Origin: Dehalococcoidia bacterium
GTDB lineage: Bacteria; Chloroflexota; Dehalococcoidia; Lucifugimonadales; JADFKI01
Length of the DNA: 64,000 bases
Reading direction: 5' to 3'
NCBI GenBank assembly: GCA_965200085.1
Contig: OZ241333.1
Location: 1,123,704 to 1,187,703 of the forward strand
Under the pieces are notes generated by a model, which did not search any database, was not told the DNA's origin, and was given only the letters and a program-made list of their open reading frames with translations. This document shows positions 5,543-52,084 of the stretch, one piece after another (position 1 is the first letter of the stretch; every line of letters begins with the position of its first letter). The position numbers were made by a program, and so were the translations under genes.

Positions 5543-6562
5543 ATGAGTTACTACAAGGCGGAATATATTTGGGTGGATGGCACTGAGCCAACTGCCAAGC
5601 TCCGCTCCAAAGGCAAGGTTGTACCGGTTGGTGAAGAGCCGCCGGTATGGGGTTTTGACGGTTCGAGCACGAACCAGGCGCCAGGCGACGCCTCGGACTG
5701 TGTGCTGAATCCTGTTTTTTCCTGCCCGGATCCAATTCGGGGCGGTAACAGCATACTGGTGATGTGTGAAGTGCTGCTGCCTGATATGTCCCCTCACCCA
5801 ACAAACACGCGCGCTGCATGCGCTGCCGCTGCGGAGGAGCATGCTGACTTTGATATGTGGTTTGGCATTGAGCAGGAATATACCTTCTTCAACGGAATCC
5901 GGTCGCAGCCGCTGGGATGGCCTGATAACGGCTTCCCTGCGCCGCAGGGCGGTTACTACTGTGGAGTCGGCTCCGATGAGGTGTTTGGCCGCCCGGTTGT
6001 GGAAGAGCACTTGGATGCCTGCCTTCATGCTGGTTTGCAGATAGCCGGCATTAACGCCGAAGTTATGCCTGCACAGTGGGAGTTCCAGGTTGGGCCGCTC
6101 GGCTCACCTGCGGTCGCGGATCAGCTTTGGATTGCGCGCTGGCTACTCTATCGGATAGGCGAGAGGCATGGCGTCGCCGCGACGCTGGATCCAAAGCCTG
6201 TGAAGGGCGACTGGAACGGCGCCGGAGCGCACACTAACTTCTCGACGAGGCAGATGCGTGACGGTGACGGCGCTTATGACGCTTGCATTGCTGCGGCAGA
6301 GGCATTGGGCGGAAATCATGACGAGCACATTGCGAACTACGGCGCTGAGATTGAACAGCGGCTGACCGGACTGCATGAGACCTGCTCTTACAGGGAGTTC
6401 CGATATGGAGTGTCTGACAGGGGAGCGTCGGTGCGTATTCCGTGGCAGGTAGAGCGAGACCGCAAGGGCTACATTGAGGATAGGCGACCTAACGCCAACT
6501 GTGACCCGTACAAGGTTACAGAGCTGATTCTCAAGACTGTCTGCGGGGCTGCGTCTTCATAA
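5543..6562 (+). CDS. glnII: glutamine synthetase type II
   Basis: 339 aa. The N-terminus MSYYKAEYIWVDGTEPTAKLRSK is typical of GSII. RBS AGGAGGGAG. Confidence 0.9.
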   Translation: MSYYKAEYIWVDGTEPTAKLRSKGKVVPVGEEPPVWGFDGSSTNQAPGDASDCVLNPVFSCPDPIRGGNSILVMCEVLLPDMSPHPTNTRAACAAAAEEHADFDMWFGIEQEYTFFNGIRSQPLGWPDNGFPAPQGGYYCGVGSDEVFGRPVVEEHLDACLHAGLQIAGINAEVMPAQWEFQVGPLGSPAVADQLWIARWLLYRIGERHGVAATLDPKPVKGDWNGAGAHTNFSTRQMRDGDGAYDACIAAAEALGGNHDEHIANYGAEIEQRLTGLHETCSYREFRYGVSDRGASVRIPWQVERDRKGYIEDRRPNANCDPYKVTELILKTVCGAASS

Positions 6563-6898: not shown

Positions 6899-8263
6899 GT
6901 GGGCGTCAATCTTAATGGGGTTGCTATGTTAGCGAGAGACCCGGAAGCCACTGAATTCGTACTTAATGAAGCCAGGGAGAACGATGTTAAGTTCATACGG
7001 CTCTGGTTTGCGGACATTCTGGGTAACCTAAAAGGATTTGCTATTACGGTTGAAGAGCTTGAACATTCTCTGACGCGTGGTATGGGTTTCGACGGCTCTT
7101 CTATCGAAGGGTTCGTGCGCTCTGATGAGCGCGACATGTACGCTCTCCCCGATCCGAATACATTCAGCTTGCTGCCGTGGCGTCCGCGTGAAAACGCAGT
7201 GGCACGTATGTTTTGTGATATTATTACTCCGGATGATGAGTCGCATGTGAGTGATCCGCGCGCTGTACTTAGACGCAATCTGGCTAATGCCGCTAATCTC
7301 GGATACACATATTATGTTGGCCCTGAGATTGAATACTTTTACTTCAAGGACACACAGGGTACGCTTACTCAAGAGCGGGGCAGTTACTTCGGACAGGATT
7401 CTGCGGATCAGGCGACTGATTTGCGCCGCCAGACGGTGCTTACTCTTGAAGAGTTGGGCATACCTGTCGAATCGAGTCATCAGGAAGCAGCGCCGAGCCA
7501 GCATGAGATTGATTTGCGGCATACTGATGCGCTGACGATGGCGGACACGATAATGACCTATCGGATTGTGGTGAAAGAGATTGCGCGGCAGAACGGTTAC
7601 TATGCGACCTTTATGCCCAAGCCTCTGCATGGCGAGAACGGCAGCGGGATGCACATGCACCAGTCGCTGTTCCAGAAGGATCGCAATGCTTTCTATGATG
7701 AGGATGATCCTCATCATATATCCGAGACAGCGAAGTTCTTTATCGCCGGGCTGATGAGGCATGCGAGAGAGATTACTGCCGTAACGAATCAGTGGGTCAA
7801 TTCGTACAAACGCCTAGTTCCGCAGTTTGAGGCGCCGACTTATGTTACATGGTCCACGGTTAATCGTGCCGACTTAATTCGAGTGCCGGATTACAAACCG
7901 GGCAGGGAGGATTCGCGTCGTATCGAATATCGCTCGCCCGATCCCGCATGCAATCCGTATCTGGCGTTCAGCGTGATGCTTGCGGCTGGATTGAAGGGTA
8001 TAGAGAATAAGTATGAGTTTCCGCCTGCGGCGCAGATGAATGCTGTGAATATGACTGAGTCGGAACGTGATGAGCTGGGCATAGAGGCGCTTCCGGCAAA
8101 CTTGTGGGAGGCGATTTATGTTGCGGAGCGCAGTGAGCTTGTACATGATTCGCTGGGAGAGCCTGTGTTCAAAAGCTTCATCGAGAATAAGAAGATAGAA
8201 TGGGAAAATTATCATAGCCGAGTGGCAGACTACGAAACTGAGCATTATTTGCCAGTGTTATAG
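6899..8263 (+). CDS. glnA: glutamine synthetase type I (start uncertain: GTG 6899 or ATG 6926)
   Basis: GSI features VKFIRLWFADILG and GSGMHMHQSLF; about 445-454 aa. Confidence 0.9.
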   Translation: MGVNLNGVAMLARDPEATEFVLNEARENDVKFIRLWFADILGNLKGFAITVEELEHSLTRGMGFDGSSIEGFVRSDERDMYALPDPNTFSLLPWRPRENAVARMFCDIITPDDESHVSDPRAVLRRNLANAANLGYTYYVGPEIEYFYFKDTQGTLTQERGSYFGQDSADQATDLRRQTVLTLEELGIPVESSHQEAAPSQHEIDLRHTDALTMADTIMTYRIVVKEIARQNGYYATFMPKPLHGENGSGMHMHQSLFQKDRNAFYDEDDPHHISETAKFFIAGLMRHAREITAVTNQWVNSYKRLVPQFEAPTYVTWSTVNRADLIRVPDYKPGREDSRRIEYRSPDPACNPYLAFSVMLAAGLKGIENKYEFPPAAQMNAVNMTESERDELGIEALPANLWEAIYVAERSELVHDSLGEPVFKSFIENKKIEWENYHSRVADYETEHYLPVL

Positions 8264-19680: not shown

Positions 19681-22107
19681 ATGGTTCGGGCGCGTGCATT
19701 TGTTTTGAATAAGTACATATTTACTTTGGCGGTCGTCGTTGTAATCTTTGGTATGTTGGGTGAGGGCACTCGGAATGCATCAGCCAATATCCCGATAAAG
19801 CCAATAGGACTTCAGGTGCATCCGGGAAATGAAGAACTGCGGGTACGCTGGTCAAAAGTTGGCGATACCAATTATGAGGTCAGATATGGCACTACCAGTG
19901 GCAGCGGTACTTGGGTGGATGCAACTACCCCGCATGTTATCACTGGATTGACGAATGGCACACTGTACTATGTGCAGGTGCGCGACGTGTTGGAGGGTCC
20001 GATTGCTGAAGAAACAGGTACACCCACAGCAACGCCACTTCCTTGGCCTATAACTAACCTCAGTGCAACCACGGGGTATATGACGCTGCATGTTACTTGG
20101 GAATCAGCTAATTATGCCACATCTCATGAGATTACCTATGCTGACACAAAGGGTCCAGGTCATGGACCTTGGGTACCTACTGATACCGACTCGAGTCATA
20201 CACTTAACAACCTGCCAGATGATGTGCAATATGTTGTGATTGTTAGAGGTAAAAATGACCAGGGCACGGGTCACCAACGCAGCATTCTTGTTTACTTGCC
20301 AGTAGTATCGCCGACCCCTACGCCGACGCCGACAGAGACGGCGACCCCTACGCCAACGCCGACAGAGACAACGACCCCGACGATGACGCCGACAGAGACG
20401 CCGACCCCTACGCCGACGCCGACAGAGACGGCGACACCGACGCCAACACCGACAGAGACGGCGACCCCTACGCCAACGCCGACAGAGACGACGACCCCGA
20501 CGATGACGCCGACAGAGACGACGACCCCGACGATGACGCCGACAGAGACGACGACCCCGACGCCGACGCCGACAGAGACGACGACACCGACGCCAACACC
20601 GACAGAGACGACGACACCGACGCCAACACCGACGGCGAGCCCGACGCCAACACCGACGGCGAGCCCAGGTCCACCTCCAGGAATGCCCATGGATGTTACG
20701 ATCGATGTGTACCTTCCTGGGGAGTTAACACTTGATTGGACGGATGGTACAGACGCCACGAGCCATCAAGTTCGGTATGGTACCAGCAGCGGCAGCGGTG
20801 AATGGATGCCCCCGATGTCGCCCCCCTATCTCACGCAGAAACATCTTATACAGGGACTAACTAACGGCACGACTTATTACGTCGGTGTGCGTGCGGTCAA
20901 CGATACGGGATACAGCGACGTGGTTGAGGTTAGCGGCGTGCCTATGAGCGGCGTAGGCGTCGTCGAGGTTGATTCGGGGGACAGAGAGCTTACTTTGAAC
21001 TGGTCAGCTGCTGCAGGCGCCACGAGTTACCTAGTACGCATGTATAGTCCGATTAGCACCGAATTTATTGAAACAACTGAGCTGTCATACACCTTCACCG
21101 GTTTGACGAATCGTGTTCAACACGTTGGCGATGTGCGCAGCAAGAACGATACAGGATTCTTGAAAGGTGTTTCGAATTGGACTGGCACTCCTTGGCCATC
21201 AGTGGAAGCGCCGGGTACGCCGAAGCACCTAATGGCGCTTCCGGGGGATATGCAGCTGACGGTAACTTGGGCGAATGCTCCGGGCGCGACCAGCCATGAG
21301 ATCCGGTACGGCACCAACATGTACAGCGGCACTTGGATGCGGGCGAGCAGTCCGCATGTGATTACCGGATTGACGAATGGAAGGACTTATTATATCCAAG
21401 TGCGAGGCAAGAACAGCGTAGGCACTGGTGCTGTCGCAACTACCACCGGTGTGCCGGCGGCGGAGATGTACATGCCGGGAGTCGAAGTAACCCCGGGTAA
21501 TGCTCTGCTGCATTTAAGCTGGGAACCTATGCCGGGCGTACATTTTTACGAGGTTGCTGTTTCTGCAGGACCATTAGTCGGGAGCTTGCGGCATTGGAGA
21601 CCTGCGGGACCGGGTACAACATATACCCTAACAGAGTTCAGACCTTTTTCCGGGATTAAGCTTGCGAATGGGCTGATGCATGTCGTGGGTGTGCGTGGAA
21701 GACTGCCGAACAATCGTGTTACGCCTGTTATCATAGGCACCGGTGTTCCGATGGAACATCTTCAAAACCCTGTGAAGCGTCCTGAAAACCCGATGATGCC
21801 GATGCCTCCAATGCCAATAATGCCGCCGATGATGCCGATGCCAATGCCGACAATGGTGCCAATGCTGATGCCGCCGGGGCCGAATCCCATGGTTCTTCCG
21901 GTCTTGCCTATCCTTCCGGTTCTGCCAGCTCGGCCGGATCAGGTACTTGCACCTGTGCCTACGGCTACACCAGAACCTACGGTTACGCCGGAACCCACGG
22001 CTGAGCCAACGCCGAGACCTACGCCGAAGCCCCCAGGACAATCTCCGAAAAATCCTTTGCTGCCGCCCATGCCTGCACCGAAACCGGGTCCAATCATAGG
22101 TCTGTAA
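19681..22107 (+). CDS. N-terminally anchored surface protein with about six fibronectin type III-like modules, a Thr/Pro repeat linker and a Met/Pro-rich tail
   Basis: N-terminal hydrophobic anchor and a recurring FN3-like pattern (L.V.W....ATS[HY].[IV]RYG...G.W......H.ITGLTNG..YY[VI].VR). 808 aa. Confidence 0.8.
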   Translation: MVRARAFVLNKYIFTLAVVVVIFGMLGEGTRNASANIPIKPIGLQVHPGNEELRVRWSKVGDTNYEVRYGTTSGSGTWVDATTPHVITGLTNGTLYYVQVRDVLEGPIAEETGTPTATPLPWPITNLSATTGYMTLHVTWESANYATSHEITYADTKGPGHGPWVPTDTDSSHTLNNLPDDVQYVVIVRGKNDQGTGHQRSILVYLPVVSPTPTPTPTETATPTPTPTETTTPTMTPTETPTPTPTPTETATPTPTPTETATPTPTPTETTTPTMTPTETTTPTMTPTETTTPTPTPTETTTPTPTPTETTTPTPTPTASPTPTPTASPGPPPGMPMDVTIDVYLPGELTLDWTDGTDATSHQVRYGTSSGSGEWMPPMSPPYLTQKHLIQGLTNGTTYYVGVRAVNDTGYSDVVEVSGVPMSGVGVVEVDSGDRELTLNWSAAAGATSYLVRMYSPISTEFIETTELSYTFTGLTNRVQHVGDVRSKNDTGFLKGVSNWTGTPWPSVEAPGTPKHLMALPGDMQLTVTWANAPGATSHEIRYGTNMYSGTWMRASSPHVITGLTNGRTYYIQVRGKNSVGTGAVATTTGVPAAEMYMPGVEVTPGNALLHLSWEPMPGVHFYEVAVSAGPLVGSLRHWRPAGPGTTYTLTEFRPFSGIKLANGLMHVVGVRGRLPNNRVTPVIIGTGVPMEHLQNPVKRPENPMMPMPPMPIMPPMMPMPMPTMVPMLMPPGPNPMVLPVLPILPVLPARPDQVLAPVPTATPEPTVTPEPTAEPTPRPTPKPPGQSPKNPLLPPMPAPKPGPIIGL
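20311..20664 (+). repeat. in-frame tandem repeat, 30-bp period, about 11.8 copies, encoding (T/A)TPT(P/M)TPTET
   Basis: Copies align exactly with the 30-nt grid of the sequence listing (ccgaccccta cgccgacgcc gacagagacg and variants). Confidence 0.95.
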
Positions 22108-25217: not shown

Positions 25218-28200
25218 TTACTCGCCGTCGATGATGCGGAACATATACTCACGTGCAGGCGACAGATATTCGGGTGCAATGCGTGCTTCAGGCTTGCCCG
25301 GCGAAGTCCACAGCACCTCGAACCACGGCGATCCTCCGGTCGTATGATATTCCAGCCTGATCTGTCGCTCGCCCTCCGAAAGCTCTACGCTGCGCTCCCG
25401 TTCTACGCGCGTGTCAATTACAACATCGTCGTCCAAAATCAACTTCAGATTTCCGTGAACCTCACCGAATTTGAACTGATATAGACCGGACTCCGGCACA
25501 TGAAGGCTTCCGTCCCATACGGCAAGGTGCTCGCCCCTCACAACAGGGTCGTACCAAAACGCGCCGCCTATGCCGGGTGTAATGCGCATTGCGTCGGGCG
25601 CGGCATCTCCAATCTCATTGGTATCCGCAACTTCCTTGAAGAAGCGTCCTGCCAGCCCCACAGGGCGAATATCTCCATGATAAAGATTACTGGCAGGTAT
25701 AGGCTCCAATGAGCGTTCAGCAGCAGGTTCATCAATCTGCTGGGATTGCTCATCTTCATCAGACGGGGACGTCGGCTGTTTCCAAAGTAATCGCAGCGCG
25801 CTGTCATTGTCTTCCACTTGCGCACGTAACTCAAGCGCATGCAGCCCAACTGCCGGCTCTATCCGTATCTGCGGGTTTCTATTTGACAAGATGACTTCTC
25901 CGTCCAGCAGCACTTGAGCAAGCGAACTGCTTTCCAGCTCGAGTACGTACTCTCCCGGATGCGTTATGTGCAGAGCGCCTACCCACTCGACATCGAACGG
26001 TGTGTGTTCCGATGCATCTTCCAGCATCCACACACTCTCGCTGCTCTTCTTGAGATGCTCCACAACCTCGCCGTCTGGTTGAGTAATCCGCGAAACAAGT
26101 CCTTGCGCTGCCTCTATCTGCTCGCGGCTCAAATATGCCGCGTAGTACATCACTTCGCCTCCCGTTGGCGGTCGAACCTCATGGAACTCGGCGTCAGGGT
26201 AGTATGTCTTCAGCGTGTCATAGAAGCCGGATTCGCGGGGTTCCAGATAGACCGCAGCGCCGTGCCACACCGATTTCAAATCTATCGGAATGCTCTCAGG
26301 CGCAGCGATTACTTCTCGGAAAAGCCTGCCTCCATAGATATGTGTGTAAACGGTATGAATCAATATGAACTGCCTTGACACAAGCGGGTTGTATCCTCTG
26401 GATGCCAGCTCGTCCACATCTATCTGCATGAGAGATTCTGCGGTGGAAAATGACGCATACACCTCAGGATGCTCCGCTTGTTCGCCGAAGTAGGTGTTAA
26501 TGTTGGTATATGCGATGACTGCAAGTAGAAGCGCCACTGCTGCTGCGGCTCCAAAGCGCACCCATCGCCAGCCGACAGACTGCGCCGTGCGGAGAATGAA
26601 GTCCAGCCCAAGCGTGATAAGAGCTGCCACCGCAGGAATAACTGTGATGCTTCGAAGCGATTGTGGCGCTTCCCAAGGTATGGTCAGTACACCGGGCATA
26701 ATCATCACAAGCACCCATACGGGTAGAACGATGTAAGCCGCATTGCGCCAGCGGAATACTGCGACTACAAGTCCCACCAGCATCAGCATACCTGAAAAGA
26801 CATCCAGCATCGGCGCGCCGGGGATGTTGTGCCGTCCGTTTGGGTCGCCTTGTATATGGAACATCAAAATATGGCGTCTAAAGTTATCCACTATTGCGGA
26901 CAGGGTCTCCCCTTCACCCACAAAGTTGGATATGAATACTACCCCTGTGCGCCGAAAAAACTCTTCCGGGTAGATGAGAGCGACTTCTGCGACAGGCGCG
27001 GCTACTATTAGCATAAAAAGTACCAGTACGCCGATATTCACCAGTAGCCGTCTTCTTCCATCCGATTTCGCAAATACCAGTGCATGCAGCAGTACAAATC
27101 CAATCACCAACGGGAACATGCGAAATGGCGAGTAGAACCACATGCCCAGACCCAGTGAGATGCCCGCCAGTGCGAAGTCGGATGCGCGCTCACTGCGTAT
27201 AGCGCGATAGGTCAACCAAGCGCTGAGTGCGGCAAAGAAAGGCAGGCTTATCGCATGCAGCCCAACGCGGCTCCAAATAATATCCCAGCGCATAACTGCA
27301 ATTAGGAACGCGGCGGTCAATCCCATCAGAGTTCCTGCCATGTATCGCATCATCAGGAACATCGCGGCGATTCCCGCAAGACCGAACCCGGCGGCTACCA
27401 GCCTTCCAGTTGATATGGATATGCCGGTGAACTCTATCTGAATTGCGGTCAGCACCGACATCAGGCTGGGGAGGTTCTGAAATGCGACGAATACCGGCGT
27501 AGAACTAGGCTCTTCAGAAATTCGTATTGCTTCGCCAATCAGATCAGCCTCGTCAAACCATAAGCCCGGCGGAACTTCGTTCAGGTTGTACAGCCGGATC
27601 AGCAGCGCAAATAACAGAATTGCGCTTAGCGCACCCCAGATCAGTATCGCCCGATACTCAAACGAGACAATTTCCCCATGTCTAAATCGATGGATAAGAG
27701 CCGACCACTTACCTTCAAACGCAGGCATAGCCGCGATCGTCAGCAGAACCGACAGAATGTAACTCCACCAAGCGAGCGTGTTTGGCGGTCCCTGGGGAAA
27801 CATATACAGACTGACCATCGCTGACAGCAAGCCAATGCACATCACGGCTATTCCCACACGCCTCTCGTTGAATCTACGTGTGGATGCTGCTTGGGCAGGC
27901 GCGTCTGTGTCTGTGGCGCCCGTTACGCTTTGATGCGATGGCGTATCAGGGTTTGCCTGTGGTAAAGCAGGCGCAGTGGGCGCTGAAGACCTTGGTGGCG
28001 CGATAGGCGAGGATGGCGCAGTATAGACCTCAGATGAATCTGAATTCGGACCTACATCCTCTGACAATGTGTCAGGAGTTCTTGCGGCAGCAGCAGGCTT
28101 GCCTGCCAGAAAAACCTTAATATCCGACAGGAACAGTGTGAAGGACTTGCGCGACAGCCCACCTGCAGCAACTGCAATCGAGGTTAGCGCAAGTGCGAAC

Positions 28201-28805
28201 GGAAATATCGCCCATTGAACGCCCGAGAAAGCGTATATCAAAAACGCAAGAATCAGCAGAATCGCGGCTGACAGTATAAGCGTAAGGCGCAGCTGTAATC
28301 TGTTCGATGCCGGTTGCTCGACGGGTGCATCAGCCGGTTCGGGATCACTTATTACCTTAGGCTCAGCGGCGTGCAGTGGATTCCCACAATCTGCACAGAA
28401 ACTATACTCAGCCGGGTTCGTTGAGCCGCATGTGCTGCAAATCGCATCCGGGAAATTTGGCGCTGGGCGCTCAAACGCCACATCGTCCGGCTCACGCACA
28501 TCGTCCGGTTCGGTTGCGGCGGTTGCGCTATCGGTATCTGTAATATCTGCGATCTGTGCTTCAAGCTCGGAGTCTTGAAGCACAGATCCACAATTGGCAC
28601 AAAACAGGAATTCAGTCGAGTTTGGCGCGTCGCATGCGCTGCAGACAGTTCTGGAAGGCGCAGACCTCGACGGTTCAATAGTGGAATCAGTAGAAGCTGC
28701 GCGCAAACTCTGCCCGCAGCCAAGGCAAAATAGGTATCTTTCAGGATTTAGAACTCCGCAGACAGGGCAGGATACAGAGGTGGAGTTGCCGTTATCCCTA
28801 ATCAC
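25218..28805 (-). CDS. multidomain membrane protein: three N-terminal zinc ribbons, a GT-C (ArnT/PMT-like, GT39/83-type) glycosyltransferase domain, and two C-terminal PA14-like domains
   Basis: CPVCG..FCLGCG, CSACD..FCANCG and CSTCG..FCADCG. More than 10 TM segments, with WFDEADLIGEA in the first loop. PA14-like WVGALHITHPGEYVLELESSSLAQVLLDGEVIL and WDGSLHVPESGLYQFKFGEVHGNLKLILDDDVVID. Confidence 0.75.
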   Translation of the reverse strand: MIRDNGNSTSVSCPVCGVLNPERYLFCLGCGQSLRAASTDSTIEPSRSAPSRTVCSACDAPNSTEFLFCANCGSVLQDSELEAQIADITDTDSATAATEPDDVREPDDVAFERPAPNFPDAICSTCGSTNPAEYSFCADCGNPLHAAEPKVISDPEPADAPVEQPASNRLQLRLTLILSAAILLILAFLIYAFSGVQWAIFPFALALTSIAVAAGGLSRKSFTLFLSDIKVFLAGKPAAAARTPDTLSEDVGPNSDSSEVYTAPSSPIAPPRSSAPTAPALPQANPDTPSHQSVTGATDTDAPAQAASTRRFNERRVGIAVMCIGLLSAMVSLYMFPQGPPNTLAWWSYILSVLLTIAAMPAFEGKWSALIHRFRHGEIVSFEYRAILIWGALSAILLFALLIRLYNLNEVPPGLWFDEADLIGEAIRISEEPSSTPVFVAFQNLPSLMSVLTAIQIEFTGISISTGRLVAAGFGLAGIAAMFLMMRYMAGTLMGLTAAFLIAVMRWDIIWSRVGLHAISLPFFAALSAWLTYRAIRSERASDFALAGISLGLGMWFYSPFRMFPLVIGFVLLHALVFAKSDGRRRLLVNIGVLVLFMLIVAAPVAEVALIYPEEFFRRTGVVFISNFVGEGETLSAIVDNFRRHILMFHIQGDPNGRHNIPGAPMLDVFSGMLMLVGLVVAVFRWRNAAYIVLPVWVLVMIMPGVLTIPWEAPQSLRSITVIPAVAALITLGLDFILRTAQSVGWRWVRFGAAAAVALLLAVIAYTNINTYFGEQAEHPEVYASFSTAESLMQIDVDELASRGYNPLVSRQFILIHTVYTHIYGGRLFREVIAAPESIPIDLKSVWHGAAVYLEPRESGFYDTLKTYYPDAEFHEVRPPTGGEVMYYAAYLSREQIEAAQGLVSRITQPDGEVVEHLKKSSESVWMLEDASEHTPFDVEWVGALHITHPGEYVLELESSSLAQVLLDGEVILSNRNPQIRIEPAVGLHALELRAQVEDNDSALRLLWKQPTSPSDEDEQSQQIDEPAAERSLEPIPASNLYHGDIRPVGLAGRFFKEVADTNEIGDAAPDAMRITPGIGGAFWYDPVVRGEHLAVWDGSLHVPESGLYQFKFGEVHGNLKLILDDDVVIDTRVERERSVELSEGERQIRLEYHTTGGSPWFEVLWTSPGKPEARIAPEYLSPAREYMFRIIDGE

Positions 28806-28813
28806 TATGGAGA

Positions 28814-31156
28814 TTACGCCTTCTGCGGTTCTTCCGTAGTGAGAACACGCTTGGCATAAAGTTCGTCTATTTCCGCAGGTGAATAGCCCAAAGCCCCAAG
28901 CTTTTCGCGGTTGTGCTCGCCCAGCAGGGGAGTCTGCCTACCGTTGATAGGCTGCGTCTCACCGAACACGATGCTATTGGCACAGTAGTGCATCTTGCCA
29001 TATACGGCATGATTGTGCTCGACAATCATCCGGTTTGCGATAACCTGTTCGTCTTCAAAATACCTCACATTATACTGATCAGTAACTCTGGTGCAGCGCA
29101 CGCCTGCTTCTCTCAGTCTGTGTATCCATTCCGCTGCGGTTCTCTGAACGAATGTATCTGTCAGTAAAGTCCACAAAGCATCATCGTTCTCCAAACGCTT
29201 CGACGGTGATGCAAAGCGTTTGTCGCTGCACAGGTCTTGCAGATCGATCGCAGAGCAAAACCGCTTCCATTCCTCTTGCGTTTCAACGATGAGGTACAGC
29301 CACCCTTCTTGTGTCTCGAAAAGCCTATACAGTGCGTTCAACCCATACTGTCCGCTGTCAGCGATGGGAGGCGATTTCTTGCCCTCATAGCGTAGGAAGT
29401 CGTCTTCCCTAAGCACGGCGCCGGCGTTGAGCAGGTTGCAATCCACCTTTTGCGCCACGCCTGTGCGCTCCCTCGCGTACAGAGCCATTATTGCCCCCAG
29501 TGCAACCATACCCCCGGAGGAGAAGTCTGTCGGCGCGAGCTGCGCAAGGAACACCGGCGGATTGCCGCGCCCGCCCTGTGCGAACTGCAATCCCATCCAA
29601 GCCTGCGCTAATGGATCGACTCCGGGACGGTGAGCGTAAGGTCCGGACCAGCCAAAAGCCGTAGTATGCGCCTGAATCAGTCTGGGGTTGATAGTGTCCA
29701 GTTCCTTTGAACTGAGCCCCATTCGGTCCGTAGCGTTGGGGCGCATATTCGCTAACATAATATCTGCTTCCGCTGCGATCTTCTGCGCTATCCGCTGCCC
29801 TTCCGAAGTCTTGGTGTTCGCAGATACGGACCGCTTATTGGAGTTCAGGTAAAGGAAATACTGCGCTCCCGCCGGCCTGGATATGTCTCCATACGGCGGC
29901 TCGAACTTGATGATGTCTGCGCCTAAGTCGCCAAGGCACTTGCCTGCGGCCGGACCGGCGATGACATTTGTCATTTCCATCACTCGAACGCCGTCGAGTG
30001 GTGCAGCGTCGTGGCGCGGCTCTACATCGCGCGGCTCAGGCAGCGCCACATCCGCAATCTCTGCTAATACGCTCTCGGTATGCTCCCCGCGCATTGGGCG
30101 CCTGCCCCGGATGCCCCCCGGAGTTTTCATGAACTTGATGGGGTTTCCCATCTGCGTAACATCGCCGACAATCGGGTCGTGCAGTTGCAGCAGCATGTCG
30201 TTGACGATAACCTGCGGGTTGTCCATAGCTTCGTTGGTCGTGCTGGCACGCGCATAGGGTACATCAGCGTCCTCGAATATGCGTTCCCATTCGGCGCAAG
30301 GTTTTGTTCTGATGACATTCGCAACAATATCGAACAGTTCAGCGCGCGCTTCCTCGCTTTCCGGACGCCTGCCATCGCCGTATCGCGGATTGGCAAGCAG
30401 TTCGGCGATACCCATTACCGTGGCGGCAATATCCACAAACCCGCCATGTATGCACCCAATCTGAATCCAATTCCCGTCAGCGCACTCGAACACGCTGTAA
30501 AAAGGTCCGCCGCCAGCCGTAGTGAGTTGGAACGGACGCTGCTCCAGCAGTTCGCCGATAACCTTCGGTGAGAACAGCAGCGCGCCTGCCATAACCGATG
30601 TATCTACCTTACGCCCGAAACCTGTTTTCTCACGCGCGTACAGCGAAGCGGTGATTCCCTGAGCCGCAAGTACCGCCGTCCCAAGATTGACGACCGGATG
30701 CACCACATGCACAGGACCTTCGCGGAAGCCCGGTTGGGACGCGAGAATACCCATGCGCGCCATGACCAGATGTTCATCGCCGGGTTCGTCTCGCATCGGT
30801 CCATTATTACCGTAGGCTGTTATTGAGCAATGCACAAGGCGAGGATTGATACGGCGCAGTTTGCTGTAATCCACAATTTTTTTGTATGCAGAGCTTGACG
30901 CAAAGTCTTCTATGAGCACATCGGCAGTGAGAGCCAGCTTCCTAAAAGTCTCTTCTTCCGCAGATATATCTAACGACACACTTTCTTTGCCCCTGTCCCA
31001 AACCATGTATATAGGCTTGGTGCGGTCGTTATCATCATCAGGGAGCTCCAGCCGTATTACGCGCGCGCCGTTATCGCAGAGGAACATTCCCGCCAGAGCG
31101 CCGGGTCTATGCCGTGTCAGATCAAGTATCGTAATTCCGTCTAGTGCGCTGGGCAT
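28814..31156 (-). CDS. fused tandem family III CoA-transferase (two CaiB/BaiF-like domains in one 780-aa chain)
   Basis: Two N-terminal-type motifs: LDGITILDLTRHRPGALAGMFLCDNGARVIRLE and LDGVRVMEMTNVIAGPAAGKCLGDLGADIIKFEPP. Each half has a catalytic-Asp-type motif (GDEHLVMARMG and GVDPLAQAWMG). Confidence 0.85.
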   Translation of the reverse strand: MPSALDGITILDLTRHRPGALAGMFLCDNGARVIRLELPDDDNDRTKPIYMVWDRGKESVSLDISAEEETFRKLALTADVLIEDFASSSAYKKIVDYSKLRRINPRLVHCSITAYGNNGPMRDEPGDEHLVMARMGILASQPGFREGPVHVVHPVVNLGTAVLAAQGITASLYAREKTGFGRKVDTSVMAGALLFSPKVIGELLEQRPFQLTTAGGGPFYSVFECADGNWIQIGCIHGGFVDIAATVMGIAELLANPRYGDGRRPESEEARAELFDIVANVIRTKPCAEWERIFEDADVPYARASTTNEAMDNPQVIVNDMLLQLHDPIVGDVTQMGNPIKFMKTPGGIRGRRPMRGEHTESVLAEIADVALPEPRDVEPRHDAAPLDGVRVMEMTNVIAGPAAGKCLGDLGADIIKFEPPYGDISRPAGAQYFLYLNSNKRSVSANTKTSEGQRIAQKIAAEADIMLANMRPNATDRMGLSSKELDTINPRLIQAHTTAFGWSGPYAHRPGVDPLAQAWMGLQFAQGGRGNPPVFLAQLAPTDFSSGGMVALGAIMALYARERTGVAQKVDCNLLNAGAVLREDDFLRYEGKKSPPIADSGQYGLNALYRLFETQEGWLYLIVETQEEWKRFCSAIDLQDLCSDKRFASPSKRLENDDALWTLLTDTFVQRTAAEWIHRLREAGVRCTRVTDQYNVRYFEDEQVIANRMIVEHNHAVYGKMHYCANSIVFGETQPINGRQTPLLGEHNREKLGALGYSPAEIDELYAKRVLTTEEPQKA

Positions 31157-37169: not shown

Positions 37170-38357
37170 CTCACGCGTACCCAGTTTAGTACGAGGTATA
37201 GAAAAAGGTCGGATACTCAGGTATAGATATAAGTTGACAAAACTCTGCCTGAGGAGTCCGACCAATGAAATGGTATAACAGCATCAGCACATTTCTCAAC
37301 TGCGCTATCCCCAATATCAGAGCTACCAGAAAAGTTAACCTCGCTCTGTTAACCTGCTCTATCCTCTCTCGCCGCCAACTCTCACTATCCGTACTCGCAA
37401 GAGAACTTGCCCGATCCTCTCTAACCAGAACCAGCTCGCATCACCACAACAAGAAGCGACTGTTCCGCTTCCTGTCCAACCACCGCCTAGATCCCTTTCA
37501 AACACAGACCGCGATGATGCCTCACATCGTCTCAACCGCACGACTCAAAGGTCTCACACCCATAATGATAGACTGGTCTGATCTTGGCAGAGGTTTCAAC
37601 GGACTGTTCGCTGCGGTCTGCTTCAGGAAGAGAGGTCTCCCACTTCTGAGCTGGGTGTCGCGCAGTGAGGAGCTGAATCCCTCTCAAAATCGCCTTGAGG
37701 AGATGTTCATTCGCAGACTGGTAACTCACCTGCCCAACACTGTTCGTCCGCTGATACTTGCTGACAGGGGTTTTGGCAGAGCCAGTCTGCTTCTGTTTAT
37801 ACAGCGCCTCCCTTCTTTCAGTGGATACCCTGTGGACTATGTCATCCGGCTCAAGAAAGATGTGATAGTGCAGAGTGAGGAGTTCAGGTGCAGATTGCGA
37901 GATTACCCTCTGCGGAAGCGGCGCATCGTGTTCGTGCCGGGTGTGAAGTATCGTCAGGATGGCGCAGTGACTACAAACCTCGTGCTGTTCTGGGGAAGCG
38001 GACATAAGAATCCGTGGTATCTGGCGACTTCCTTGTCTGATGCGAGACTTGCTGTGAAGATGTACCGCAAGCGGATGCAGCCTGAACAGTACTTTAGGGA
38101 CGGCAAGCAGCGCTTCTCTCTTGCTTCTACGACCGTTACCACCTCAAGTCGTCTTCAGCGTCTGCTGCTTGGAGTTGTGCTGGCGTGTGTTGTGCTCATT
38201 CTTGTTGGGATGCGTGTATCGCCGTCATTTCGGAAACAAGTCTGTTCCTGGGGCAAACTTGGGGTTTTGCACCTCGGACTGGAATACTACTTTGCATACT
38301 ATGAACCTCCTCCCGACTATCTCGGCATCACTCCTTTCCAAACTGGGTACGTGTGAG
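37170..38357 (+). mobile_element. intact IS4-family insertion sequence (1188 bp)
   Basis: 18-bp terminal inverted repeats CTCACGCGTACCCAGTTT and CTCACACGTACCCAGTTT (17/18 match), a single DDE transposase ORF, and an 11-bp TSD. Confidence 0.85.
37265..38356 (+). CDS. IS4-family DDE transposase
   Basis: D in IMIDWSD, D in LILADRGFG, and the exact Y-x2-R-x3-E-x6-K signature YRKRMQPEQYFRDGK. The stop lies inside the right IR. Confidence 0.85.
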   Translation: MKWYNSISTFLNCAIPNIRATRKVNLALLTCSILSRRQLSLSVLARELARSSLTRTSSHHHNKKRLFRFLSNHRLDPFQTQTAMMPHIVSTARLKGLTPIMIDWSDLGRGFNGLFAAVCFRKRGLPLLSWVSRSEELNPSQNRLEEMFIRRLVTHLPNTVRPLILADRGFGRASLLLFIQRLPSFSGYPVDYVIRLKKDVIVQSEEFRCRLRDYPLRKRRIVFVPGVKYRQDGAVTTNLVLFWGSGHKNPWYLATSLSDARLAVKMYRKRMQPEQYFRDGKQRFSLASTTVTTSSRLQRLLLGVVLACVVLILVGMRVSPSFRKQVCSWGKLGVLHLGLEYYFAYYEPPPDYLGITPFQTGYV

Positions 38358-46002: not shown

Positions 46003-47499
46003 CTAGATGCTCGGCAAGGGCACTGTGTCGCCGGTCTCGTGCTGCCAGATTCGGATGCGTGCCGCCATGTCGATAATCCTATCACGCTGCGCCGGATCGT
46101 TGTAAAGGTTGTTCTGCTCATACGGGTCGTTGTTCATGTCAAACAGCTCACACTGGTCTCCTGCACACAGATTAAGCTTCCAGCGGTCAGGCGTAATAAC
46201 TGAACGCCAGGGGAGTGTCAGCATACGGTTGATATCCGAACTGCCCAAGAATCGATCAGGAAGTTCATCACTTGTGCCATTCCACTGCACGAACACATCG
46301 TTGTTATCAAGCGTCTGTTCGCCTTTGAGCACAGGCACGAGGCTCTTACCTTGCAGCGACTCGGGGATGTCATGACCGCTCAGATCCAGCAGTGTAGGCA
46401 CGAGGTCTATATGTCCCACACTGCCATCAACTATCGTTTGCTCCTTTGACAGCCATGGAACGCACATCAGCAAAGGCACTCTCGATGCCTCCTCATAGAA
46501 CGAGCGTTTTTCGAGCATGCCGTGGTCTCCCATCATGTCTCCGTGCTCGCTGGTGAACACCACGACTGTGTTGTCTGCTACCCCGGCATTCTCCAAGGCA
46601 TCCGTTATTCTGCCCACCATGTCGTCGACAAGCGTGATATTCGCAAGATAATGCGCGCGCAGTGTGCGCCAGCCCTCTTCGGTCGTAACATCTTCTCGTG
46701 CGGCGGCATAGCGCGTCATGTAGTCGTCGTCAGAGTGGCTTTTTCCTTCCAGCATGAACTGCATGAAATAGTTGGCGCGTACGCGATTAACTCGCGATGC
46801 GCCTTCGGGCAACTCAAGGAAGGCATCTCCAACGGGAAGCTCTGCCGGGTCGTACATATCCATATAAGGACCGTGATAGGGCGAATGCGGTTCAAAAGTG
46901 CTGACATACAGAATGAAAGGGCGGTCCTTATTCTGTTCTATGAACTCTGCGGCGCTGTCTCCTAAGTAAGACGCCATCTGGAACTCTTTGGGCAGGTCTT
47001 GGCGCGCATCCGCAGAGAACACTTCCAGTCCGTCGGAATGCGAGCTGTCGGGTATGTAGCCGTTCTCAACCAAGTGCTGGTGATACGGTGTCAGCTCATA
47101 GCGCAGTTCCGTGCGCGTGTATGCTTCGCGATGACCATCCTCAGTTGGATTCCACACATCGAACCCGTGCTGAACTTGCACGTCGTTGCCGAGATGCCAC
47201 TTACCCATATACCCCTTGAAGTATTCGTCGTCAATCATCTCAGCAATGACGGGTGTACCCTCAGGCAGGTGAATCTTGTTCACGATAGGACCTGCAGTGT
47301 GCGGGTATAGACCCGTCATAATAGTGGCTCGCGCCGGAGTGCATACCGGCTGGGCTACATACGCGTTGCGGAATACGAAGCTTCGGTCAGCCAGCGCATT
47401 CAGGTTCGGTACATTCATAAACTCACTGCCATAGCAAGCAAGAGTGTCATAACGCTGCTGATCACTCATTATGAATACGATGTTTGGCCTTTCTGCCAT
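46003..47499 (-). CDS. Cys-type sulfatase, no signal peptide
   Basis: PNIVFIMSDQQRYD N-terminus and the formylglycine motif CTPARATIMTGLYPH. Confidence 0.9.
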   Translation of the reverse strand: MAERPNIVFIMSDQQRYDTLACYGSEFMNVPNLNALADRSFVFRNAYVAQPVCTPARATIMTGLYPHTAGPIVNKIHLPEGTPVIAEMIDDEYFKGYMGKWHLGNDVQVQHGFDVWNPTEDGHREAYTRTELRYELTPYHQHLVENGYIPDSSHSDGLEVFSADARQDLPKEFQMASYLGDSAAEFIEQNKDRPFILYVSTFEPHSPYHGPYMDMYDPAELPVGDAFLELPEGASRVNRVRANYFMQFMLEGKSHSDDDYMTRYAAAREDVTTEEGWRTLRAHYLANITLVDDMVGRITDALENAGVADNTVVVFTSEHGDMMGDHGMLEKRSFYEEASRVPLLMCVPWLSKEQTIVDGSVGHIDLVPTLLDLSGHDIPESLQGKSLVPVLKGEQTLDNNDVFVQWNGTSDELPDRFLGSSDINRMLTLPWRSVITPDRWKLNLCAGDQCELFDMNNDPYEQNNLYNDPAQRDRIIDMAARIRIWQHETGDTVPLPSI

Positions 47500-51980: not shown

Positions 51981-52084
51981 AGCAGACTCCAATAGCAGGT
52001 TAGTGGTCAATTCTGGGTAGAAGTTATGCCAAACTATGCTTGTTGTCAATGCCGTATCTAGCTTAGGGATGTGCCAAAATGAAT

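What the first reader, a model, noticed from the sequence alone, without database searches (positions are those of the whole stretch)
25218..28805. 1195-aa fusion: three cytoplasmic zinc ribbons, a GT-C glycosyltransferase and two PA14 domains
Seen: three consecutive CxxC-x12-15-CxxC ribbons, a TM segment, a Pro/Ala/Ser-rich spacer, a polytopic ArnT/PMT-like core with an FDEA loop, then two PA14-like modules. Established knowledge: PA14 domains bind carbohydrates, and GT-C enzymes transfer sugars from lipid carriers on the outer face of the membrane. Inference: a self-contained enzyme that recognises a glycan or glycoprotein target with its PA14 domains. The intracellular zinc ribbons could be a regulatory or protein-docking input.
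Basis: partly seen in the sequence, partly recalled or inferred. Interest (0 to 1): 0.55.

Follow-up and report, generated by a model that had tools for sequence, protein, structure and literature searches.

The report
Membrane glycosyltransferase with tandem PA14 tail
This is a real, intact gene for a large membrane sugar-transferase of a marine SAR202-type Chloroflexota bacterium. It carries two PA14 modules outside the cell and three optional zinc fingers inside, belongs to a widespread but unstudied family, and is almost always paired with an odd CoA-transferase gene.

Summary
A 1195-aa ORF on the minus strand (25218-28805) encodes three 4-Cys zinc ribbons and two extra TM hairpins separated by a disordered Pro/Ala/Ser/Thr spacer. 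These are followed by an 11-TM GT-C core with an invariant WFDE loop, an alpha/beta ectodomain and two PA14-fold modules.

It is not a chimera. Identical copies occur in independent assemblies, and collinear orthologues occur in many Dehalococcoidia/SAR202 genomes. Relatives are found in 368 species genomes.

- The ribbon spacing is CxxC-x10-CxxC.
- Ribbons number 0-3 among orthologues, so they are accessory.
- The first PA14 is below Pfam threshold but is confirmed by profile and fold.
- Both PA14 modules lack the DcisD calcium/sugar site of lectin-type PA14.
- The GT-C core matches no solved GT-C by sequence, only by fold and a marginal PMT_2 hit.

New finding: a fused, half-degenerate family III CoA-transferase gene lies immediately upstream in about 41-43 of 47 SAR202-type loci, often with a 4-bp overlap. 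This is unexplained.

Best reading: a polyprenyl-phosphate-sugar-dependent envelope glycosyltransferase whose PA14 dyad holds the acceptor, similar in logic to Emb/AftD. It is a new variant of a known kind, of moderate interest.

The parts
25218..28805 (-). Whole ORF: 1195 aa, GTG start, stop codon at 25218-25220.
   Evidence: The identical protein is found in independent assemblies.
28716..28769 (-). Zinc ribbon 1 (aa 13-30, CPVCGVLNPERYLFCLGC).
   Evidence: AF2 pLDDT is about 77.
28590..28643 (-). Zinc ribbon 2 (aa 55-72, CSACDAPNSTEFLFCANC).
   Evidence: DZR 13-73. It is poorly modelled (pLDDT 25-29) because few homologues cover it.
28386..28439 (-). Zinc ribbon 3 (aa 123-140, CSTCGSTNPAEYSFCADC).
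   Evidence: Zn_Ribbon_1/DUF7577 123-145. pLDDT is about 82.
28164..28304 (-). Extra TM hairpin 1 (aa 168-214).
   Evidence: Hydropathy. AF2 helices 168-194 and 196-214.
27897..28094 (-). Disordered Pro/Ala/Ser/Thr-rich spacer (aa 238-303), inferred cytoplasmic.
   Evidence: 64% P/A/S/T. pLDDT is below 50. Orthologues insert zinc ribbons here.
27717..27896 (-). Extra TM hairpin 2 (aa 304-363).
26478..27656 (-). GT-C core, about 11 TM helices (aa 384-776).
   Evidence: Pfam PMT_2 at 452-605. Fold matches to AglB, ArnT, STT3, Emb, PglB and Pmt4.
27546..27560 (-). WFDEA motif (aa 416-420) at the start of the first extracytoplasmic loop helix. Putative catalytic acidic pair D418/E419.
   Evidence: W416, D418 and E419 are invariant in 57/57 sequences. 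The position follows core TM1.
26802..26873 (-). Family-signature extracytoplasmic loop H645..GDPNGRHNIPGAPMLD668.
   Evidence: Invariant residues are H645, G653, D654, N656, R658, H659, N660, P665-D668. It was used as a search pattern.
26106..26468 (-). Alpha/beta ectodomain (aa 780-900) that follows the last TM helix.
   Evidence: AF2 secondary structure with pLDDT of 65-92 in 10-residue blocks, mostly 84 or above. It co-occurs collinearly with the PA14 dyad in relatives.
25770..26105 (-). PA14 module 1 (aa 901-1012), divergent.
   Evidence: Pfam 16.3 bits, below the 24-bit cut-off. The profile hits only PA14 structures. The fold matches GH31/GH3 PA14 inserts at TMq 0.66-0.76.
25686..25769 (-). 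Acidic disordered linker (aa 1013-1040).
25230..25685 (-). PA14 module 2 (aa 1041-1192).
   Evidence: Pfam PA14 36 bits. RsgI3 dyad E 4e-22. Foldseek 5e-13.
28814..31156 (-). Conserved upstream partner gene: a 780-aa fused double family III CoA-transferase. Its stop codon lies 8 bp before the GT start.
   Evidence: Pfam CoA_transf_3 x2. Adjacency is conserved. The C-half resembles SUGCT (2e-52). D544 is invariant, while the N-half equivalent is never Asp.

Best explanation
The gene encodes an active GT-C-fold (ArnT/PMT/OST-like) membrane glycosyltransferase of a monoderm, SAR202-type Dehalococcoidia bacterium.

Shown:
- Fifteen predicted TM helices: two accessory N-terminal hairpins plus an 11-TM core.
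- An invariant D418-E419 pair at the start of the first outward-facing loop.
- A strongly conserved outward-facing loop (GDPNGRHNIPGAPMLD).
- A C-terminal ectodomain made of an alpha/beta domain and two PA14-fold modules.

Inferred:
- The enzyme takes a sugar from a polyprenyl-phosphate carrier at the outer face of the membrane. It transfers the sugar to an extracytoplasmic acceptor, most likely a glycan or glycoprotein of the S-layer-type, peptidoglycan-free envelope.
- The PA14 dyad holds or positions the acceptor. This follows the logic of the lectin-like modules of EmbC/AftD and the PA14 inserts of GH31/GH3 enzymes.
- The three zinc ribbons and the Pro/Ala/Ser/Thr spacer are cytoplasmic, lineage-variable accessories. 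They probably serve as docking sites and are not part of the catalytic mechanism.
For: GT-C identity:
- Pfam PMT_2 scores above its cut-off.
- The confident AF2 model (pLDDT 79.8) matches AglB (3e-9), ArnT (7e-7, TMt 0.53), STT3, EmbA/B/C, PglB and Pmt4 (TMt 0.55).

Catalytic competence:
- W416, D418, E419, R468, R513, H645, D654, N656, R658, H659, N660 and D668 are invariant across 57 homologues down to 23% identity.

Topology:
- Loop charges follow the positive-inside rule.
- Orthologues place ribbons either before hairpin 1 or between hairpins 1 and 2.

PA14 dyad:
-.
- The whole ectodomain occurs as one collinear unit at the C-terminus of 850-1250-aa proteins. There are 225 representatives at E<=1e-10, so it evolves together with the GT-C core.

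Envelope context:
- Cultured SAR202 are monoderm, lack peptidoglycan synthesis genes and show an S-layer-like coat (PMC10444878).

Precedent for GT-C plus lectin modules:
- EmbC (PMC3044687) and AftD (bioRxiv 10.1101/2019.12.22.885152).

Accessory nature of the ribbons:
- Orthologues carry 0-3 ribbons.
Against: - No characterised homologue exists. The GT-C core has no sequence match to any solved GT-C even at E<=10.
- The PMT_2 score is only 4.5 bits above its cut-off.
- NCBIfam gives no family.
- Neither PA14 module has the DcisD-N calcium/sugar site, so sugar binding is unproven.
- No polyprenyl-phosphate sugar synthase, flippase or other glycan-synthesis gene lies in the 64-kb window or next to relatives.
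- The only conserved neighbour is a CoA-transferase, which this model does not explain.
- Donor, acceptor and sugar are all unknown.
Confidence: 0.55

Rival explanations
1. The glycosyltransferase and the upstream fused CoA-transferase work as a unit. The soluble pseudo-dimeric CoA-transferase docks on the cytoplasmic face, at the extra TM hairpins, the spacer or the zinc ribbons. It then regulates the GT-C enzyme or feeds it, as acyl carrier protein does for AftD and Emb proteins. This would couple acyl-CoA metabolism to surface glycan synthesis or modification. It is compatible with the best explanation but adds an obligatory partner.
For: - The 775-783-aa double CoA_transf_3 gene is the immediate upstream, same-strand neighbour in 5/5 contigs inspected, although all other neighbours differ.
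- It is also the upstream neighbour in about 41-43 of 47 Dehalococcoidia/SAR202 species loci. Gaps run from -4 to +14 bp in most of them, and the 4-bp overlap is common.
- There is no other CoA_transf_3 paralogue in the window, so paralogue density does not explain the adjacency.
- Precedent: ACP binds a unique extra 4-TM bundle of AftD.
Against: - Adjacency alone does not show interaction.
- The 33 Anaerolineae/Caldilineae-type relatives (about 30% identity) lack the CoA-transferase neighbour.
- Orthologues with and without ribbons both keep the pairing, so the ribbons are not the docking element.
- No fusion of the two proteins was seen among the hits.
- No known chemistry links a family III CoA-transferase to a GT-C enzyme.
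Confidence: 0.15
2. The protein has the GT-C fold but is not a classical polyprenyl-phosphate-sugar transferase. It might transfer a non-sugar or acylated group, or act as a polymerase or scaffold for envelope assembly.
For: - It is very distant from all characterised GT-C enzymes.
- It has a family-specific invariant loop motif.
- It has an unexplained CoA-transferase partner.
- No sugar-donor genes lie nearby.
Against: - The EL1 acidic pair and conserved basic residues are arranged as in GT-C glycosyltransferases.
- From established knowledge, all characterised members of this fold class use lipid-phosphate-linked sugars.
Confidence: 0.1
3. The protein is mainly a transmembrane sensor of the RsgI type. 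The outside PA14 dyad senses a polysaccharide, and the inside zinc ribbons pass the signal to a cytoplasmic partner.
For: The best sequence and structure match of the ectodomain is the PA14 dyad of the polysaccharide-sensing anti-sigma factors RsgI3/RsgI4. The zinc ribbons are cytoplasmic.
Against: - There is no RsgI N-terminal anti-sigma domain.
- Ribbons are absent in most orthologues.
- The GT-C catalytic-type residues are invariant.
- The calcium/sugar site used by RsgI PA14 is missing (PMC6852018).
- No sigma factor gene is adjacent.
Confidence: 0.05
4. The long ORF is an assembly or annotation artefact: a chimera of unrelated genes.
For: Only the unusual length and mixed domain content.
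Against: - The identical 1195-aa product occurs on independently assembled contigs from two sequencing runs and on a 2.83-Mb contig.
- Orthologues at 48-62% identity are collinear over 86-100% of the length.
- The N-terminus lines up with orthologues, which also have 11-12 residues before the first Cys.
Confidence: 0.01

Closest known systems
ArnT (GT83) and protein O-mannosyltransferases (GT39; Pfam PMT_2/PMT), e.g. PDB 5EZM/5F15 and Pmt4 9I5K
   Same: - GT-C fold with about 11-13 TM helices.
- An acidic motif at the start of the first outward loop.
- Two loop helices after TM1, and a C-terminal outward domain.
- Pfam PMT_2 above its cut-off.
- Foldseek TMt of 0.53-0.55.
   Different: - No detectable sequence similarity to any solved member at E<=10, and no PF02366 hit.
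- Four extra N-terminal TM helices.
- Cytoplasmic zinc ribbons.
- An alpha/beta plus PA14-dyad ectodomain.
- No MIR domain.
- Donor and acceptor are unknown.
Mycobacterial arabinosyltransferases EmbA/B/C and AftD (GT-C enzymes with lectin-like carbohydrate-binding modules and a bound acyl carrier protein)
   Same: - A GT-C core fused to large extracytoplasmic carbohydrate-binding-type beta-sandwich modules that hold the acceptor glycan (PMC3044687).
- Fold-level matches to EmbA/B/C.
- Extra TM helices and a cytoplasmic partner from acyl/pantetheine metabolism, which is only an analogy to the conserved CoA-transferase neighbour.
   Different: - The modules here are PA14, not the CBM folds of Emb/AftD.
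- No sequence homology.
- A different phylum and envelope, with no arabinan or peptidoglycan.
- The partner relationship here rests only on gene adjacency.
Tandem PA14 dyads of the anti-sigma factors RsgI3 (C. thermocellum, 6QE7) and RsgI4 (C. clariflavum, 6QDI)
   Same: - Two PA14 modules in tandem, on the outside of a membrane-anchored protein of a monoderm bacterium.
- Best sequence match (4e-22) and best structural match (5e-13, about 317 aligned columns).
   Different: - The DcisD-N calcium/sugar site is absent here.
- The dyad is attached to an enzyme, not to an anti-sigma domain.
- An acidic 28-residue linker separates the two modules.
PA14 inserts of glycoside hydrolases (GH31 alpha-xylosidases 7KMP/2XVG/5JOU; GH3 beta-glucosidases 3AC0/7PJJ)
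   Same: - They are the best structural matches of PA14 module 1 (TMq 0.66-0.76).
- In both cases a PA14 is built into a carbohydrate-active enzyme.
- From established knowledge, the PA14 there extends the substrate-binding site rather than acting as a free lectin.
   Different: Those enzymes are soluble hydrolases with the PA14 as an internal insert. Here the PA14 modules are C-terminal to a membrane transferase.
Oligosaccharyltransferases AglB/PglB/STT3 (GT66)
   Same: They are the top GT-C fold hits (AglB 3e-9). The layout is also TM core plus C-terminal outward domain.
   Different: - No WWDxG motif is present in the sequence (read directly).
- No STT3 Pfam hit for this protein.
- No sequence similarity.

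Membership tests
GT-C fold glycosyltransferases (ArnT/PMT/OST/Emb class) | Polytopic membrane core of about 11-13 TM helices, with N-terminus in and C-terminal domain out. | tested here: met
   Hydropathy and loop charges. AF2 helices 384-776 form 11 TM helices, preceded by two hairpins.
GT-C fold glycosyltransferases (ArnT/PMT/OST/Emb class) | Conserved acidic residue(s) in the first extracytoplasmic loop directly after core TM1. | tested here: met
   W416-F-D418-E419 is invariant in 57/57 homologues. It lies at the start of loop helix 417-431.
GT-C fold glycosyltransferases (ArnT/PMT/OST/Emb class) | Structural similarity to solved GT-C enzymes. | tested here: met
   Foldseek hits: AglB 3e-9, ArnT 7e-7 (TMt 0.53), STT3, Emb, PglB, Pmt4 (TMt 0.55).
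GT-C fold glycosyltransferases (ArnT/PMT/OST/Emb class) | Use of a polyprenyl-phosphate-linked sugar donor. | not testable with these tools
   This needs biochemistry. No donor-synthase gene was found nearby.
GT39 protein O-mannosyltransferase (PMT) | Match to curated PMT models. | tested here: inconclusive
   PMT_2 (PF13231) scores 30.6 bits against a cut-off of 26.1. There is no PF02366 (PMT) hit and no NCBIfam family.
GT39 protein O-mannosyltransferase (PMT) | Sequence relationship to characterised or solved PMTs, and a MIR domain in the luminal loop of eukaryotic members. | tested here: not met
   No solved GT-C chain matches at E<=10, with either the profile or the single sequence. There is no MIR hit.
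GT39 protein O-mannosyltransferase (PMT) | Transfer of mannose to Ser/Thr of secreted proteins. | not testable with these tools
   This needs glycoproteomics or an enzyme assay.
PA14 domain (PF07691) | Match to the curated model, or to PA14 structures. | tested here: met
   Module 2 scores 36 bits alone and 4e-22 to RsgI3. Module 1 scores 16.3 bits, below the 24-bit cut-off. Its profile nevertheless hits only PA14 structures, and its fold matches PA14 inserts.
Lectin-type PA14 (yeast Flo/Epa adhesins, RsgI sensors) | DcisD motif on strand 5 plus Asn in calcium-binding loop 2, which together hold the sugar-binding calcium (PMC6852018). | tested here: not met
   In module 2 the aligned positions are V1116-H1117(-G1118). 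H is present in 43/57 and G in 51/57 sequences. In module 1 the positions are S-S here and D-S in most orthologues.
Zinc ribbon (DZR PF12773 / Zn_Ribbon_1 PF13240) | Two CxxC knuckles 8-20 residues apart, and a match to curated models. | tested here: met
   There are three CxxC-x10-CxxC units. DZR scores 45.6 bits and Zn_Ribbon_1 38.7 bits, both above their cut-offs.
Zinc ribbon (DZR PF12773 / Zn_Ribbon_1 PF13240) | Zinc binding. | not testable with these tools
   This needs metal analysis of residues 1-165.
RsgI-type anti-sigma sensors | N-terminal cytoplasmic anti-sigma (RsgI_N) domain and an adjacent sigI gene. | tested here: not met
   There is no such Pfam hit at E<=1. The neighbours are a CoA-transferase and an FMN dehydrogenase.
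Oligosaccharyltransferase (GT66: STT3/AglB/PglB) | WWDxG motif in the C-terminal domain, and a match to the STT3 model. | tested here: not met
   There is no WWD in the sequence and no PF02516 hit for this protein.

The most novel reading that the evidence does not exclude
The GT-C enzyme and the half-degenerate, fused family III CoA-transferase encoded just upstream form an obligate two-protein machine specific to SAR202-type Dehalococcoidia. The cytoplasmic CoA-transferase docks on the enzyme's extra cytoplasmic and TM elements. It either gates glycosyl transfer according to acyl-CoA status or supplies an acyl or acid group that ends up on the exported glycan. This would directly couple central acyl-CoA metabolism to envelope glycosylation, a link not described for any GT-C enzyme.
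Probability: 0.12. Interest if true: 0.7.

Novelty: new variant of a known kind. Interest (0 to 1): 0.4.

Why it matters
SAR202 and related Dehalococcoidia are among the most abundant deep-ocean and sponge-associated bacteria. They lack peptidoglycan, and how their envelope is built is essentially unknown.

This family is widespread: relatives occur in 368 species genomes, and the ectodomain has 225 cluster representatives at E<=1e-10. It is one of the few recognisable envelope-glycosylation candidates in these organisms. It would also be the first GT-C enzyme type with a PA14 dyad.

If the conserved pairing with a pseudo-dimeric CoA-transferase reflects a physical or metabolic link, it would extend the still unexplained ACP-Emb/AftD observation. 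That would point to a broader theme of acyl-carrier or CoA proteins controlling GT-C enzymes.

If the pairing is merely operonic, the finding is a well-documented but ordinary multidomain member of an uncharacterised GT-C family.

Tried and rejected
- A homologue search with the N-terminal 236 residues alone (ribbons plus hairpin 1) returned nothing, not even the protein itself. I could not ask which other proteins share this N-terminal module.
- NCBIfam gave only sub-threshold noise.
- PDB sequence searches with the family profile and with the GT-C core alone gave no GT-C hit at E<=10. Residue-by-residue mapping onto ArnT/PMT catalytic residues was therefore not possible. Model coordinates are not exposed, so I could not measure where the PA14 dyad sits relative to the DE loop.
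- I looked for donor-pathway genes (GT2 polyprenyl-phosphate sugar synthases, flippases) in the whole window and beside distant relatives. None were found.
- Literature searches for PA14 + GT-C, Chloroflexi + GT39, and SAR202 + CoA transferase + glycosyltransferase found nothing on this family.
- Rejected: the chimera/mis-assembly reading.
- Rejected: the RsgI-like anti-sigma reading.
- Rejected: OST membership, because there is no WWDxG motif.
- Rejected: chance adjacency to an expanded CoA-transferase paralogue family. There is no second paralogue in the 64 kb, and the orthologous double enzyme is conserved in more than 40 species.

Full report
**1. What is in the sequence**

The coordinates 25218-28805 hold a single ORF on the minus strand. 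It has a GTG start and encodes 1195 aa. The plus-strand reading is full of stops.

The first 167 residues are acidic (27 D/E against 8 K/R). They contain three 4-Cys ribbons at 13-30, 55-72 and 123-140. Twelve of the protein's 13 cysteines sit in these motifs. Pfam confirms the ribbons: DZR 45.6 bits, Zn_Ribbon_1 38.7 bits and DUF7577 42.2 bits, all above their cut-offs.

After the ribbons comes a TM hairpin (168-214), not a single TM segment. A 66-residue spacer follows that is 64% Pro/Ala/Ser/Thr and modelled as disordered. Then come a second TM hairpin (304-363) and the polytopic core (384-776).

**2. The GT-C assignment**

- Pfam PMT_2 matches residues 452-605 at 30.6 bits against a cut-off of 26.1. 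This is a real but marginal hit.
- NCBIfam gives nothing.
- A profile of 57 homologues finds no solved GT-C chain by sequence, even at E<=10. Neither does the core on its own.
- The fold is nevertheless clear. The AlphaFold2 model has mean pLDDT 79.8 and pTM 0.71, with values above 90 across most of the core.
- Foldseek matches include AglB (3e-9), ArnT (7e-7, TMt 0.53), STT3, EmbA/B/C, PglB and Pmt4 (TMt 0.55).
- The helix pattern is the GT-C one: core TM1 (384-405), two loop helices (417-431, 448-460), then ten more TM helices.
W416, D418 and E419 are invariant in all 57 homologues, down to 23% identity.
- R468, R513, H645 and the loop G653-D-P-N-G-R-H-N-x-P-x-x-P-M-L-D668 are also invariant.
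- This is the conservation pattern expected of an active enzyme.

**3. The two PA14 modules**

Module 2 (about 1041-1192) is unambiguous.
- It scores 36 bits on its own.
- It matches the tandem PA14 dyad of the anti-sigma factor RsgI3 at E 4e-22.
- The whole-protein model aligns over about 317 columns to that 291-residue dyad.

Module 1 (about 901-1012) is below the Pfam cut-off by itself (16.3 vs 24 bits), so I tested it separately.
- A profile of this segment from 22 family members hits only PA14-containing structures in the PDB. The best is 6qdi at 3.6e-6.
- Its own model (pLDDT 82) best matches the PA14 inserts of GH31 alpha-xylosidases and GH3 beta-glucosidases (TMq 0.66-0.76). The RsgI dyads, yeast Epa/Flo adhesins and anthrax protective antigen follow.

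Both modules therefore have the PA14 fold. An alpha/beta domain (780-900) links them to the last TM helix.

**4. Topology**

- There are four TM helices (an even number) between the ribbons and core TM1. Cytoplasmic ribbons therefore imply an outward DE loop, which the GT-C mechanism requires. Eleven core helices then put the C-terminal ectodomain outside.
- Orthologues provide an independent check. The same ribbon type (consensus CxxCGxxNPxxYRFCxxC) lies before hairpin 1 in some orthologues. In others (P0004, P0005, P0020, second ribbon of P0002) it lies inside the spacer between hairpins 1 and 2.
- Those two segments are separated by two TM helices, so they are on the same side of the membrane.

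**5. It is not an artefact, and how common it is**

- The identical protein is encoded on contigs from two independent sequencing-run assemblies and on a 2.83-Mb contig.
- Sixty-seven protein clusters are related. Collinear orthologues reach 48-62% identity.
- A scan of one genome per species found relatives in 368 genomes. The closest 47 loci (39-57% identity) are Dehalococcoidia/SAR202 MAGs. The next tier (about 30%) are Anaerolineae, Caldilineae and Herpetosiphon.
- The ectodomain (780-1195), searched against 1.84 billion cluster representatives, gives 817 hits at E<=1e-3 and 225 at E<=1e-10. Nearly all are single collinear matches at the C-terminus of 850-1250-aa proteins. The GT-C core and the alpha/beta-PA14-PA14 tail are therefore one evolutionary unit.
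- The zinc ribbons are not part of that unit. Orthologues carry 0, 1, 2 or 3 ribbons. Most have none (39 of 57 clusters). This protein is the only cluster in the set with three clearly separate ribbons; one species locus, L025, also matched the motif three times, but at overlapping positions.

**6. The unexpected feature: a conserved CoA-transferase partner**

The gene directly upstream (28814-31156, minus strand) has its stop codon 8 bp before the GTG start. It encodes a 780-aa fusion of two family III CoA-transferase domains.

- In five contigs inspected, the GT-C protein is 42-100% identical to the window protein. This 775-783-aa gene was the immediate upstream neighbour in every one, while all other neighbours differed.
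- Across the 47 Dehalococcoidia/SAR202 species loci it is the upstream neighbour in about 41-43. Intergenic distances are mostly -4 to +14 bp, and the 4-bp overlap is frequent.
- It is absent from all 33 Anaerolineae-type loci.
- There is no second CoA_transf_3 paralogue in the 64-kb window.
- The C-terminal half is SUGCT-like (2e-52) and keeps an invariant Asp (D544, 47/47) at the catalytic position.
- The equivalent residue of the N-terminal half is N/Y/S/I and never Asp. The equivalence between the two halves rests on my alignment of them.
- The partner thus looks like a fused pseudo-dimer with one active site.

I cannot explain this pairing. The nearest precedent is the unexplained binding of acyl carrier protein to the cytoplasmic face of the GT-C enzymes AftD and EmbA/B/C. 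In AftD the ACP sits on an extra four-helix TM bundle (Emb-AcpM entries). That is an analogy, not evidence.

**7. Context**

- The window is ordinary chromosome. It carries SHMT, RNase III, glutamine synthetase, glutamate synthase, RNase Y and AspRS, among others. It also has the catabolic paralogues typical of SAR202: luciferase-like monooxygenase, nitroreductase, thiolase and three sulfatases.
- No polyprenyl-phosphate sugar synthase or other glycan-synthesis gene is present.
- The distant Anaerolineae relatives sit in tandem arrays of PMT_2 paralogues. These carry NHL propellers and PA14 domains, sometimes with a DUF2298 membrane protein or an M23/LysM peptidase.
- Cultured SAR202 are monoderm, lack peptidoglycan synthesis genes and show an S-layer-like coat (PMC10444878).

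**8. How it most likely works**

Shown: the fold, the conserved catalytic-type residues, the inferred topology and the tandem PA14 ectodomain.

Inferred: it is a polyprenyl-phosphate-sugar-dependent transferase acting at the outer membrane face on an envelope glycan or glycoprotein. The PA14 dyad holds or positions the acceptor. This is the logic of the lectin-like C-terminal module of EmbC (PMC3044687), the three CBMs of AftD and the PA14 inserts of GH31/GH3 enzymes.

One caveat is important. Lectin-type PA14 domains bind sugar through a calcium held by a DcisD-N motif, and loss of that motif abolishes binding in RsgI3 PA14B (PMC6852018). Here the aligned positions are V-H-G in module 2 (H in 43/57 and G in 51/57 sequences) and S-S in module 1. 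If these modules bind glycans, they do so differently. The conserved His-Gly hints at a family-specific site.

The ribbons are best seen as optional cytoplasmic docking modules. I put this overall reading at 0.55.

**9. Rival readings**

- An obligate CoA-transferase/GT-C unit: 0.15. This is compatible with the main reading.
- A GT-C-fold protein with non-classical chemistry: 0.10.
- An RsgI-like sensor: 0.05. There is no anti-sigma domain, the ribbons are mostly absent and the catalytic residues are invariant.
- An artefact: 0.01.

**10. Comparison and verdict**

The protein works like an Emb/AftD/PMT-type GT-C enzyme with a built-in acceptor-binding module. It is a member of the GT-C fold class.

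It cannot be filed as a bona fide GT39 PMT, GT83 ArnT or GT66 OST. It shows no sequence relationship to characterised members, has no MIR domain and has no WWDxG motif.

Public annotation calls relatives 'glycosyltransferase family 39 protein' or 'hypothetical'. I found no paper on the family.

It is therefore a new variant of a known kind:
- a widespread, uncharacterised Chloroflexota GT-C family with a PA14 dyad;
- here decorated with three zinc ribbons;
- in SAR202-type genomes, locked to a pseudo-dimeric CoA-transferase gene.

Interest is moderate (0.4). The architecture itself is a logical extension of known designs. The conserved CoA-transferase coupling is the feature most worth following up.

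Noticed in passing
window 28814-31156 (-): A 780-aa fusion of two family III CoA-transferase domains. The C-terminal half is SUGCT-like with an invariant catalytic-type Asp (D544). The N-terminal half has N/Y/S/I at the equivalent position, so the protein is probably a single-active-site pseudo-dimer. It is more conserved than the GT-C gene it precedes (up to 83% vs 57% identity).
   Followed up: partly
orthologues P0002, P0004, P0005, P0020 (protein ids): Zinc ribbons of the same consensus (CxxCGxxNPxxYRFCxxC) are inserted in the spacer between TM hairpins 1 and 2 instead of at the N-terminus. The ribbon therefore behaves as a mobile cassette that lands in either cytoplasmic segment.
   Followed up: partly
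window 46003-47499, 48611-50251, 50307-52049 (all -): Three sulfatase genes (Sulfatase + SGSH_C) lie close together, separated by a metallo-beta-lactamase-fold gene on the other strand. This suggests use of sulfated glycans or organosulfates.
   Followed up: no
window 52154-53188 (-): A free-standing 344-aa NHL beta-propeller without an obvious signal peptide. It is 38-40% identical to the NHL propellers that are fused to GT-C (PMT_2) paralogues next to the distant Anaerolineae relatives. Other SAR202 loci have an NHL gene 7-8 kb downstream of the GT-C gene.
   Followed up: partly
loci L056, L067, L074, L078 and others (Anaerolineae/Caldilineae): Distant relatives (about 30% identity) sit in tandem arrays of two to four large PMT_2 paralogues carrying NHL and/or PA14 ectodomains. 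Some arrays also include a DUF2298 membrane protein or an M23/LysM peptidase. The CoA-transferase neighbour is absent there.
   Followed up: partly
window 19681-22107 (+): An 808-aa protein with fibronectin type III repeats lies 3 kb from the GT-C gene. It is a possible surface protein, but it is not conserved next to the GT-C gene in other genomes.
   Followed up: no
window 37265-38356 (+): A DDE transposase gene, the only mobile-element signature seen in the window.
   Followed up: no
loci L038 and L046 (same MAG, contigs CBDCEF010000003.1 and CBDCEF010000004.1): Two copies of the CoA-transferase/GT-C pair occur in one assembly. The GT-C proteins are 88.6% identical and each has a 4-bp overlap with its CoA-transferase. 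This is either a duplication of the pair as a unit or strain heterogeneity.
   Followed up: no
window 5543-6562 (+) and 6899-8263 (+): Two glutamine synthetase-type genes in tandem (one short at 339 aa, one canonical at 454 aa) lie next to an ammonium transporter and glutamate synthase genes.
   Followed up: no
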